Source of the DNA: Escherichia coli
Lineage (GTDB): Bacteria; Pseudomonadota; Gammaproteobacteria; Enterobacterales; Enterobacteriaceae
Length of the DNA: 14,550 nt
Direction: 5' to 3' (one strand)
Assembly: GCF_003334335.1 (NCBI RefSeq)
Contig: NZ_QOWQ01000060.1
In this document: in pieces, positions 13,559 through 14,550 of the stretch
How the letters are laid out: every line of letters starts with the position of its first letter
Position numbering within the stretch: the first letter of the stretch is position 1
Notes under the pieces: generated by a model
Seen by the model: only the letters and a program-made list of their open reading frames with translations
What the model was told of the DNA's origin: nothing
The model's database searches: none
Position numbers and translations under genes: made by a program

Positions 13559-14473
13559 TGTTGTGGTCAACTAAAACTGGCCTCCGCGTTAGAGTTTTTC
13601 CAGTATCGGTTTTCTGATTCGTTTGGTGGTAACCCACCATTATATTCGTGCGGTCTTAGTGCGCTGTAATATCCAACGATATAGTCCGTTATTGCGTGAG
13701 CTGCATCGCTGAAGCTTACATAGCCCGTCGCTGGCACCCATTCGTTCTTCAGACTCCTGAAGAAGCGCTCCATTGGGCTGTTATCCCAGCAGTTTCCACG
13801 CCGACTCATACTCTGCCTGATCCGGTATCGCCACAGTAACTGCCGGAACTGCCTGCTCGTATAATGACTGCCTTGATCGCCTGGAACATCACCCCGACGG
13901 GCTTACCACGGGTTTCCCATGCCATTTCCAGTGCTTTCATGGTAAGCCTGCTGTCCGGCGAGAACGACATGGCCCAGCCCACTGGTTTTCTTGCGAACAG
14001 GTCGAGAACAACGGCGAGGTACGCCCAGCGCTTACCCGTCCAGATATAGGTCACATCACCGCACCACACCTGATTTGGTTCCGTTACGGCGAACTGTCGC
14101 TCAAGATGATTCGGGATAGCAACGTGCTCATGACCGCCACGCTTATACCGGTGAGTCGGCTGCTGGCAACTGACCAGCCCCAGCTCTTTCATGAGTCTGC
14201 CAGCAAGCCAGTGCCCCATCTGGTAGCCTCTCCGGGTTGCCATTGTGGCGATGCTTCTTGCTCCGGCAGAGCCGTGGCTGATGCCATGCAGTTCAAGTAC
14301 CTGGCTGCGTAATACAGCCCGTCTGCCGTCTGGTTTTTCAGGACGGTTTTTCCAGTATCTGTAGCTGCTGCGATGAACCCCGAACACATGGCAGAGTGTG
14401 ACCACAGGATAATGCGCTCTGAGTTTCCTGATTATCGAGAACTGTTCAGGGAGTCTGACATCAAGAGCGCGGT
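13559..14473 (-). mobile_element. IS911-like (IS3 family) element, partial: right end to the point of IS30 insertion
   Basis: The end at 13559 reads TGTTGTGGTCAACTAAAACTGGCC, resembling IS911 terminal repeats. The orfB body is present, and the orfA 3' end (…[13 protein letters not shown], stop at 14432-14434) is cut at 14473 by the IS30 left end. Confidence 0.8.
13567..14473 (-). pseudogene. insO: IS911-like transposase orfB, frameshifted and separated from orfA by IS30
   Basis: The N-terminal two thirds (…[21 protein letters not shown]…[38 protein letters not shown]…GKPVGVMF) and the C-terminal third ([41 protein letters not shown]…) are in different frames. The frames switch near 13880, consistent with a 1-nt deletion. 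Confidence 0.75.
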
Positions 14474-14550
14474 TGTAGATTCAATTGGTCAACGCAACAG
14501 TTATGTGAAAACATGGGGTTGCGGAGGTTTTTTGAATGAGACGAACATTT
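14474..14550 (+). mobile_element. IS30 left end (terminal repeat and leader), element continues beyond the window
   Basis: TGTAGATTCAATTGGTCAACGCAACAGTTATGTGAAAACATGGGGTTGCGGAGGTTTTTTGA followed by an ATG matches the IS30 left terminus as I remember it. The transposase ATG sits 62 nt from the end, as in IS30. Confidence 0.8.
14536..14550 (+). CDS. insI: IS30 transposase, first 5 codons (MRRTF), 3' end outside the window
   Basis: ATG AGA CGA ACA TTT encodes MRRTF, the start of the IS30 transposase, in the expected position relative to the terminal repeat. Confidence 0.7.

What the first reader, a model, noticed from the sequence alone, without database searches (positions are those of the whole stretch)
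13559..14550. Nested IS structure: IS30 inserted into IS911-like orfA, and orfB additionally frameshifted
The IS30 left end begins at 14474, immediately after IS911 orfA codons encoding …[13 protein letters not shown]. It separates the orfA body and frameshift site (which must lie beyond the window) from orfB. Independently, orfB changes frame near 13880, between …GKPVGVMF and [16 protein letters not shown]…. The element is therefore doubly inactivated. As I remember it, this fecE-proximal IS911/IS30 arrangement is the same one found next to fec in E. coli K-12 (insN-insI-insO), which would mark it as an old, vertically inherited scar rather than a recent insertion.
Basis: partly seen in the sequence, partly recalled or inferred. 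Interest (0 to 1): 0.4.

Follow-up and report, generated by a model that had tools for sequence, protein, structure and literature searches.

The report
Dead IS911-type element split by IS30
Next to the E. coli iron-citrate (fec) genes lies a dead mobile element that another mobile element (IS30) has cut in two and that also carries a one-base deletion; this scar is ordinary, is already annotated, and is shared by hundreds of E. coli genomes.

Summary
Window 13559-14473 (minus strand) is the right 915 bp of an IS3-family element of the IS911/ISEc52 group. It holds the last 13 orfA codons ([13 protein letters not shown], stop) and all of orfB. IS30 starts at 14474: 77/77 bases match K-12 IS30D, and the transposase ATG is at 14536. 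In strain S88, 99.9% identical to the window over its right-hand 7.9 kb, IS30 is a simple 1221-bp insertion with a 2-bp duplication. It sits 6 nt 3' of the A-AAA-AAG slippery site, so orfA and that site are cut off from orfB. OrfB also has a 1-bp deletion at 13880/13881 (CAC AGC to CA-GGC), two codons before the second catalytic Asp. Intact ISEc52 and IS911 read through this point in one frame.

The K-12 comparison holds only in part. K-12 has the same fec-proximal copy and the same deletion. But a 327-bp IS600 remnant replaces the 120 bp next to IS30, and the K-12 orfA half comes from a different IS911 lineage. The window shows the simple nested insertion, K-12 a rearranged relative. The junction occurs in up to 810 of 5426 complete E. 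coli genomes, so it is old. Strictly vertical descent is not shown. Already known; low interest.

The parts
13559..14473 (-). Right-hand 915 bp of an IS3-family element (IS911/ISEc52 mosaic), from the IS30 insertion point to the right terminal repeat.
   Evidence: Aligns end to end with intact ISEc52 (L004) and IS911 (L009). Annotated as IS911B-1 in K-12 and as 'IS3 family transposase, frameshifted, missing N-terminus' in S88.
13559..13594 (-). Right terminal inverted-repeat region of the IS911-type element. On the plus strand the terminus reads TGTTGTGGTCAACTAAAACTGGCC.
   Evidence: Coincides with the end of intact ISEc52, with one mismatch in the last 52 bp.
14432..14473 (-). Last 13 codons of orfA ([13 protein letters not shown]) plus the stop codon.
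   Evidence: Translation. The same sequence follows the A-AAA-AAG site in intact ISEc52 and IS911.
14472..14473 (.). One copy of the 2-bp IS30 target duplication (GT on the plus strand, AC in IS911 orientation).
   Evidence: S88 has GT on both sides of the 1221-bp IS30.
13882..14471 (-). orfB N-terminal part (RALDV...GKPVGVMF), which holds the first catalytic Asp (WCGDVTY). After 13881 it continues out of frame to a stop at 13806-13808.
   Evidence: Translation. Matches IS3 transposase profile NF033516 positions 88-277, E=1.6e-54.
13880..13881 (-). Frameshift lesion: a 1-bp deletion plus an adjacent A>G change, so CAC AGC (His-Ser) became CA-GGC.
   Evidence: Alignment with intact ISEc52 and IS911. 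K-12 and ST131 carry the deletion without the substitution.
13567..13881 (-). orfB C-terminal part in a different frame ((G)[10 protein letters not shown]...ASFS*), which holds the second Asp and the Glu of the D,D(35)E motif.
   Evidence: Translation. Matches NF033516 positions 282-368, E=7e-32. 100% colinear with ISEc52 orfB.
14474..14550 (+). Left end of IS30: the 26-bp IRL at 14474-14499 and the transposase start at 14536 (MRRTF). It is cut off by the window edge.
   Evidence: 77/77 identical to K-12 IS30D. It continues as a complete 1221-bp IS30 in S88, which differs from IS30D at 2 positions.
13227..13484 (-). yjhV-like gene remnant ('NAD(P)-binding domain-containing protein', 85 aa) lying between fecE and the IS right end. 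This is context, not part of the IS.
   Evidence: Annotation in S88 and O26. Annotated as the yjhV pseudogene in K-12.

Best explanation
This is the dead remnant of an IS3-family insertion sequence, an IS911/ISEc52 mosaic. It sits beside yjhV and fecE in the leuX-associated fec island of E. coli, and two independent lesions inactivate it.

(1) Frameshift. A 1-bp deletion in orfB at window 13880/13881 shifts the frame two codons before the second catalytic Asp. The first Asp of the D,D(35)E triad therefore lies in one reading frame, and the second Asp and the Glu lie in another.

(2) IS30 insertion. IS30 inserted by its normal route into the dinucleotide AC that lies 6 nt 3' of the A-AAA-AAG slippery heptamer, and made a 2-bp duplication. 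The orfA body, the ribosome-slippage site and the left IS end are now 1.2 kb away from orfB. The OrfAB fusion transposase cannot be made.

The shared deletion shows that the frameshift predates the split between the window-type and the K-12/ST131-type alleles. When IS30 arrived relative to that split is not resolved. The K-12 version differs by an IS600 insertion and recombination or deletion at IS30.

Shown: the anatomy, the lesions, the target duplication and the distribution. Inferred: the order of events and the loss of function.
For: - IS30 end: identity with K-12 IS30D and a 2-bp duplication in S88.
- orfA tail and the two orfB frames. Intact relatives read through in a single frame, and the profile match is split 88-277 / 282-368.
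- The same deletion occurs in K-12, ST131, S88 and O26. It is absent from a 96%-identical yjhV-adjacent copy on a Klebsiella plasmid.
- The annotations of K-12 and S88 agree with this reading.
- The junction is present in up to 810 complete E. coli genomes.
Against: - Loss of function is inferred from sequence, not measured.
- Only 77 bp of IS30 and none of the orfA body lie in the window, so the complete nested structure rests on genomes 99.7-100% identical to the window (S88 and others), not on the window itself.
- IS30 reuses this site, so identical junctions in different genomes need not all descend from a single insertion.
- An RNA fold of the segment just 3' of the insertion is no more stable than shuffled sequence (z = -0.11). 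I therefore could not show that IS30 separates the slippery site from a stimulatory structure.
Confidence: 0.95

Rival explanations
1. The window junction and the K-12 insN/insI/insO locus come from the same single IS30 insertion, and K-12 is simply the same scar.
For: The fec-proximal IS copy is the same and the flanks are 99.5% identical. The orfB 1-bp deletion is the same. IS30 has the same orientation and the same orfA-side junction ...GGCTAC|IRR. The S88 IS30 and K-12 IS30D differ at only 2 of 1221 positions.
Against: - K-12 lacks the 120 bp that form the window junction. Its IS30 IRL abuts an IS600 left-end fragment instead.
- The K-12 orfA half and alignment columns 455-770 are 99.7-100% identical to a different IS911 that sits beside yjhE in strain YDC107, and only 91% identical to the window copy in columns 500-770.
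- ST131 carries a full IS600 at the K-12 junction and no IS30 there.
- IS30 hits this site independently, in both orientations.
Confidence: 0.4
2. The frame change near 13880 is not a lesion but the normal or programmed frame structure of this IS lineage.
For: None beyond the fact that IS3-family elements do use programmed frameshifting elsewhere, at the A-AAA-AAG site.
Against: - Intact ISEc52, IS911 (YDC107), the pO157 copy and two plasmid copies all read CAC AGC GAT in a single frame.
- The break falls inside the conserved FHSDQG catalytic motif.
- RefSeq marks the fec-proximal copy as 'frameshifted'.
Confidence: 0.01
3. The junction is recurrent rather than inherited. The 810 genomes acquired IS30 at this hot spot many times in parallel, so the junction is not one old scar.
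For: IS30 sits at the same dinucleotide in K-12 IS911A in the opposite orientation, in ISEc31, at the homologous site of IS600, and in plasmid copies in both orientations.
Against: The best-matching genomes are 100% identical across the whole 1881 bp, including the linked deletion with its A>G change and the IS30 orientation. The allele without IS30 (O26 type) carries a 3-bp footprint rather than a clean empty site. No clean, unoccupied fec-proximal copy with the A>G variant was seen.
Confidence: 0.1

Closest known systems
E. coli K-12 MG1655 KpLE2 locus: IS911B / IS30D (insI3) / IS600 fragment (insM) / IS911B-1 (insO) / yjhV / fecE
   Same: The same fec-proximal IS copy, with 99.5% identity from the IS1F outer end through fecIRABCDE and yjhV to IS position 456. 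The same 1-bp deletion in orfB. IS30 in the same orientation, with the same orfA-side junction.
   Different: In K-12 a 327-bp IS600 left-end fragment replaces window 14354-14473, so the IS30|IS911 junction of the window does not exist there. The K-12 orfA half belongs to another IS911 lineage with a yjhE flank, and its slippery run has 5 A instead of 6. K-12 lacks the A>G change next to the deletion.
E. coli S88 / Nissle 1917 / ATCC 25922 / DSM 30083T fec-proximal locus (RefSeq: 'IS3 family transposase, frameshifted' + 'IS30-like element IS30 family transposase')
   Same: 100% identical over window 12670-14550. S88 shows the complete nested structure with the 2-bp duplication, next to tRNA-Leu (leuX).
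   Different: Nothing relevant to the finding. Overall, S88 is 99.7-99.9% identical to the window.
K-12 CP4-6 prophage IS911A::IS30A (insN / insI1)
   Same: IS30 is inserted at exactly the same AC dinucleotide after the slippery site, with a 2-bp duplication. The literature describes it as IS911 interrupted by IS30A (PMC9333248).
   Different: IS30 is in the opposite orientation. The host element is ISEc52-like throughout, lies at a different chromosomal locus and is truncated after about 430 bp of the orfB side.
ISEc52 and IS911 (intact IS3-family elements)
   Same: Same length class (~1250 bp), same ends, and the same orfA/orfB layout with an A-AAA-AAG site. The window part is 98.6% identical to ISEc52 overall.
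   Different: The intact elements have one continuous orfB and no IS30. The window copy is a mosaic: IS911-like up to about column 500 and ISEc52-like beyond.

Membership tests
IS3 family (IS911/ISEc52 group) | DDE (D,D(35)E) transposase of the IS3 type encoded by orfB. | tested here: met
   The two orfB fragments match NCBIfam NF033516 'IS3 family transposase' at positions 88-277 (185.6 bits, above the 160-bit cutoff) and 282-368. The motifs WCGDVTY, (H)SDQGSHY and SPMERFF are visible.
IS3 family (IS911/ISEc52 group) | orfA and orfB overlap in the -1 frame, with an A-AAA-AAG slippery site that yields OrfAB. | tested here: met
   The window holds only the orfA tail and orfB. The slippery site ATTAAAAAAGGCTAC lies directly beyond IS30 in S88 and is continuous in the O26 allele.
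IS3 family (IS911/ISEc52 group) | Terminal inverted repeats ending 5'-TG...CA-3' at the position of the reference element's ends. | tested here: met
   The right end at 13559 coincides with the ISEc52 end (...GTTGACCACAACA). The left end was seen only in S88 and O26.
IS3 family (IS911/ISEc52 group) | A 3-bp (or 3-4 bp) target duplication flanking the element. | tested here: not met
   The left flank in S88 and O26 ends ...TGAAGTGG. The right flank in the window begins GAC (IS orientation). No matching repeat is present. Later rearrangement at the left end would explain this, so it does not argue against IS identity.
IS911 proper (as opposed to ISEc52) | Near-identity to IS911 along the whole length (isoform level). 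| tested here: not met
   Measured against a RefSeq copy annotated 'IS911 family' (YDC107): 98-99% in columns 1-500 but 91.1% in columns 500-770 and 94.2% in columns 770-1250. Against ISEc52: 99.3-99.6% in columns 500-1250. The element is a mosaic. No ISfinder reference sequence was available.
IS30 | The characteristic terminal repeat (TGTAGATTCAATTGGTCAACGCAACA) followed by the transposase start. | tested here: met
   77/77 identity to the IRL end of annotated K-12 IS30D. ATG at 14536, MRRTF.
IS30 | A 1221-bp element with one ~383-aa transposase and a 2-bp target duplication. | tested here: met
   Outside the window, in S88: 1221 bp, a 1152-nt CDS, and GT/GT flanks. It differs at 2 positions from IS30D and at 3 from IS30A.
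IS30 | Insertion into a preferred, nearly palindromic hot-spot target. | tested here: inconclusive
   The same dinucleotide is used in IS911A, ISEc31, IS600 and several plasmid copies, in both orientations. The arms are only 6-7 of 12 symmetric. The published consensus could not be retrieved.
K-12 insN-insI-insO arrangement | The same IS copy next to yjhV/fecE with the same orfB frameshift. | tested here: met
K-12 insN-insI-insO arrangement | The same junction between the IS30 IRL and the orfB half. | tested here: not met
   K-12 has IS30D|IS600(327..1)|IS911(456..). Window 14354-14473 is missing from it.

The most novel reading that the evidence does not exclude
The AC dinucleotide 6 nt 3' of the slippery heptamer may be a general IS30 hot spot in IS3-family elements (IS911, ISEc52, ISEc31, and the homologous site of IS600). 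If so, one IS family would recurrently knock out another at its frameshift window.

The 3-bp insertion GGCTAC-A-ACCGCG may be the footprint of near-precise IS30 loss. It occurs in the fec-proximal copy of O26 and similar bovine/STEC-type strains and in an otherwise intact IS911-like element on pO157. It is exactly what deletion between the CTAC microhomologies would leave (GG-CTAC|TGTAG...AT-CTAC-A|ACCGCG), perhaps promoted by the IS-excision enhancer of EHEC. That would restore continuity with one extra Thr codon.

I found no description of either point in the searchable literature. IS30 hot-spot targeting, IS30 excision and IS911::IS30 in K-12 are each known.
Probability: 0.55. Interest if true: 0.3.

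Novelty: already known. Interest (0 to 1): 0.1.

Why it matters
The finding matters little in itself. It is a correctly read example of IS-in-IS decay, and RefSeq and the curated K-12 annotation already carry it.

It has two practical uses:
- The three allelic states of this locus could serve as markers for tracing the history of the fec island. The states are a simple IS30 nest, an IS600-rearranged form as in K-12 and ST131, and IS30 lost with a 3-bp scar.
- The repeated use of one dinucleotide by IS30 in several IS3-family elements is a convenient natural data set for studying IS30 target choice and excision.

Tried and rejected
- O26 allele as an empty site. I first took the O26:H11 allele without IS30 to be the ancestral empty site. 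I rejected this because it carries 3 extra bases exactly at the insertion point, and these are absent from ISEc52 and IS911.
- Programmed frameshift near 13880. Rejected, because all intact relatives read through in one frame.
- Rfam scan of the whole window: no family reached threshold.
- RNA fold of the 90 nt 3' of the insertion point, looking for the frameshift-stimulating structure. It was no more stable than shuffled sequence (z = -0.11), so I make no structural claim.
- Published IS30 hot-spot consensus. Literature searches for it failed, and PMC179709 is not held. The comparison with the consensus is therefore missing.
- Simple adjacent-deletion model for K-12 (IS30 deleting into a neighbouring IS600). 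I weakened it after finding that the K-12 orfA half and columns 455-770 belong to another IS911 lineage, and that ST131 has a full IS600 flanked by different DNA. Recombination between IS copies must also be involved.
- ISfinder. No ISfinder reference was available, so IS911 and ISEc52 were represented by RefSeq copies annotated with those names.

Full report
**What is in the window**

The window is the E. coli ferric-citrate region. fecI, fecR and fecABCDE run on the plus strand, and fecE ends at 12669. Window 4120-14353 is 99.54% identical to K-12 MG1655 4519239-4509007. That stretch runs from the outer end of IS1F through fecIRABCDE and yjhV into 'IS911B-1'. The window is even closer to strain S88: 99.7% over 1-8900 and 99.9% over 6670-14550. 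The stretch 12670-14550 is 100% identical in S88, Nissle 1917, ATCC 25922, DSM 30083T and many other genomes.

**Checking the observation**

- *IS30 end.* From 14474 the sequence is TGTAGATTCAATTGGTCAACGCAACA..., 77/77 identical to the IRL end of annotated IS30D. The transposase ATG is at 14536 (MRRTF).
- *orfA tail.* On the minus strand, 14473-14432 encodes [13 protein letters not shown] and a stop. This is the end of orfA in intact relatives.
- *orfB in two frames.* The orfB frame is open from the IS30 junction to ...[12 protein letters not shown] and then runs out of frame to a stop at 13806. The remainder, (G)[15 protein letters not shown]...NAEASFS*, lies in another frame and ends at 13567.
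- *Intact reference.* An intact ISEc52 has one continuous 301-codon frame with ...GVMFHSDQGSHY....
- *The lesion.* The DNA alignment shows CAC AGC changed to CA-GGC, a 1-bp deletion plus an adjacent A>G change, at window 13880/13881.
- *Profile match.* The two fragments match positions 88-277 and 282-368 of the NCBIfam IS3-transposase profile. The intact protein matches 88-368 in one piece.
- *Catalytic motif.* The break falls two codons before the second Asp of the D,D(35)E motif. Counting residues gives 35 between that Asp and the Glu of SPMERFF.

**The nested structure beyond the window**

In S88 the IS30 is a complete 1221-bp copy. It differs from K-12 IS30D at 2 positions. It is flanked by GT on both sides, which is AC in IS911 orientation. 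The flanks read ...GAAATATTAAAAAAGGCTAC | IS30 | ACCGCGCTCTTGATG.... Removing IS30 and one AC restores the sequence of intact ISEc52 and IS911.

IS30 therefore sits 6 nt 3' of the A-AAA-AAG slippery heptamer.

From general knowledge of IS911, the OrfAB fusion made by -1 slippage at this heptamer is the transposase. Separating orfB from the heptamer abolishes that fusion, and the 1-bp deletion independently splits the catalytic triad. 'Doubly inactivated' is a sound inference, though I did not measure it. I could not show that IS30 also separates the heptamer from a downstream stimulatory RNA structure. The 90 nt 3' of the insertion fold no better than shuffled sequence.

**What kind of IS it is**

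I compared the element with a RefSeq copy annotated 'IS911 family' (strain YDC107) and one annotated ISEc52. The full element, the S88 orfA half joined to the window orfB half, is a mosaic:

| Alignment columns | Identity to IS911 | Identity to ISEc52 |
|---|---|---|
| 1-500 | 98-99% | 91-95% |
| 500-1250 | 91-94% | 99.3-99.6% |

K-12's copy switches later, near column 770. 'IS911-like' is therefore acceptable, but most of the window part is ISEc52-like. RefSeq labels the K-12-type copies 'ISEc52 family'.

**Comparison with K-12**

- *What K-12 shares.* K-12 has the same fec-proximal copy and the same 1-bp deletion. Its sequence is CCA-AGC, without the A>G change.
- *What K-12 lacks.* It lacks window 14354-14473. 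In place of those 120 bp there is a 327-bp fragment annotated IS600 (insM), on the opposite strand. One end of the fragment is the exact IS600 terminus (...AAACTCAGGCTACCTCA), abutting IS911 position 456. The other end (TTAAAAAAAGCAAC) abuts the IS30 IRL. That second end is the IS600 position homologous to the IS30 site in IS911.
- *The K-12 orfA half.* It is 99.7% identical to the YDC107 IS911, which sits beside the nanY/ythA genes as in K-12. It shares that copy's 5-A slippery run, and its outer flank differs from the one in S88.
- *ST131.* Strain 5506 has a full-length IS600 at the same IS911 position 456, the K-12-type deletion, and no IS30 there.

K-12 is therefore a rearranged relative. 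At least an IS600 insertion plus recombination or deletion at IS30 separates it from the simple nest seen in the window. I cannot decide whether its IS30 descends from the same insertion event.

**Age and inheritance**

| Allele | Count |
|---|---|
| 157-bp query across the window junction, at least 80% covered | 810 of 5426 genomes. This is an upper bound, because a few are other IS911::IS30 copies. |
| IS600\|IS911(456) junction, K-12 type | 1214 genomes, always chromosomal; single copy in nearly all (1222 places) |
| 60-bp query carrying the 3-bp-insertion allele, at least 99% identity | 392 records |

The scar is clearly old and widespread. Vertical inheritance is not established, for three reasons:

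- The locus lies in a leuX-associated island. tRNA-Leu is 3.5 kb beyond the IS in S88, and fec lies within KpLE2 according to PMC3032704.
- From my own knowledge of strain phylogroups, both the window type (S88, Nissle) and the IS600 type (ST131) occur within group B2.
- A 96%-identical yjhV-IS block sits on a Klebsiella plasmid with an unframeshifted orfB and an IS30 in the opposite orientation.

That plasmid copy also shows that the frameshift arose after the IS settled next to yjhV. Because all E. coli chromosomal alleles examined share the deletion, it predates their divergence.

**Side findings outside the window**

1. *A 3-bp footprint.* O26:H11 11368 and similar bovine/STEC-type genomes in the hit lists have the fec-proximal copy without IS30. 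It is otherwise identical to the window copy, including CA-GGC. It carries GGCTAC-A-ACCGCG, 3 extra bases exactly at the IS30 site. This is what a deletion between the two CTAC repeats would leave (flank GG-CTAC and IS30 end AT-CTAC-A). It amounts to the duplicated AC plus the last IS30 base. The same 60 bp occur in a different, apparently intact IS911-like element on pO157, whose orfB is ~86% identical. IS30-associated excision and its stimulation by the IS-excision enhancer of EHEC are described in the literature. The link to that enhancer is untested here.
2. *A recurrent IS30 target.* IS30 occupies the same dinucleotide in several other elements:
   - K-12 IS911A, in the opposite orientation;
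   - ISEc31;
   - IS600 in O157:H7 and in K-12;
   - Citrobacter and Klebsiella plasmid copies, in both orientations.

   pColV-K30 also shows IS911 orfA abutting IS30 (PMC2212542). This fits the documented preference of IS30 for nearly palindromic hot spots (PMC9333248). The arms here are only 6-7 of 12 symmetric, and I could not retrieve the published consensus.

**Verdict**

The K-12 equivalence and the 'vertical' inheritance are only partly supported. The feature is already known from genome annotation and is of low interest. The side findings on IS30 targeting and the 3-bp footprint are modestly interesting and lie outside the window.

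Noticed in passing
L003:5330-5342 (E. coli O26:H11 11368, NC_013361.1 ~5541660); also L010:~2525-2537 (pO157 of strain 86-24): The fec-proximal IS copy in O26 and similar bovine/STEC-type genomes lacks IS30. It has 3 extra bases (GGCTAC-A-ACCGCG) exactly at the IS30 insertion point. That is what deletion between the CTAC microhomologies at the flank and the IS30 end would leave. The same sequence occurs in a different, apparently intact IS911-like element on pO157. In total 392 records carry it.
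   Followed up: partly
L006:2041/2042 and 3262/3263; L007:2506/2507; L008:2541/2542 and 3762/3763; L011:5312/5313; L013:3416/3417 and 4637/4638: IS30 sits at the same AC dinucleotide 6 nt after the slippery heptamer in K-12 IS911A, in ISEc31, at the homologous site of IS600, and in Citrobacter and Klebsiella plasmid copies, in both orientations. This looks like a recurrent IS30 hot spot in IS3-family elements.
   Followed up: partly
L001:7445-7459 (K-12 IS911B left fragment) and L009 (YDC107 IS911): The slippery run has 5 A (TTAAAAAGG) instead of 6, both in the K-12 orfA-side fragment and in the full-length YDC107 copy that RefSeq annotates as 'programmed frameshift'. The loss of one A puts orfA in the third frame, which ends at a nearby TGA, so these copies may be defective as well.
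   Followed up: no
window 13559-14473 versus L001:9008-9802: The IS is a mosaic of IS911-like and ISEc52-like segments. The switch point differs between the window (about column 500) and K-12 (about column 770), which points to gene conversion between IS copies. About 24 of the 46 window-versus-K-12 mismatches fall in this 270-bp stretch.
   Followed up: partly
window 1-4119 and 4120-4887: Homology with K-12 stops exactly at the outer end of IS1F (window 4120). By the S88 annotation, the left 4.1 kb holds an IS66 tnpC fragment (ORF 26-787), a phytase-like esterase gene (1026-2399, minus strand), IS3 and IS5 fragments and a YmgB/AriR-family gene (~3117-3410). The IS1 itself is annotated with an internal stop. 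The fec operon is bracketed by dead IS elements.
   Followed up: partly
L002:~9360-9376 and L003:4991-5008: The left tip of the IS in S88 and O26 is preceded by an 8-bp copy of itself (TGAAGTGG TGAAGTGGTTTACTG). No 3-bp target duplication matches between the left flank and the right flank (window 13556-13558).
   Followed up: no
window 13227-13640 (minus strand): A 137-codon ORF starts inside the right end of the IS (13640) and reads outward through the yjhV-like remnant. RefSeq annotates only the last 85 codons (13227-13484) as an 'NAD(P)-binding domain-containing protein'. It is probably a gene truncated by the IS insertion.
   Followed up: no
L008:1634-4670 (E. coli GPEC1354): One IS30 is flanked on both sides by orfB-side halves, ISEc31 on one side and the yjhV-adjacent IS on the other. 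This is the product expected from inversion or recombination between two IS30 copies inserted in opposite orientations in two IS3-family elements.
   Followed up: no
L012:2310-3530 (E. coli ST131 strain 5506): A full-length, apparently intact IS600 sits at IS911 position 456 of the fec-proximal copy. On its other side are a BCCT transporter and a DUF2254 gene, the genes that flank the intact IS911 in YDC107. This is a candidate intermediate for the K-12 arrangement.
   Followed up: partly
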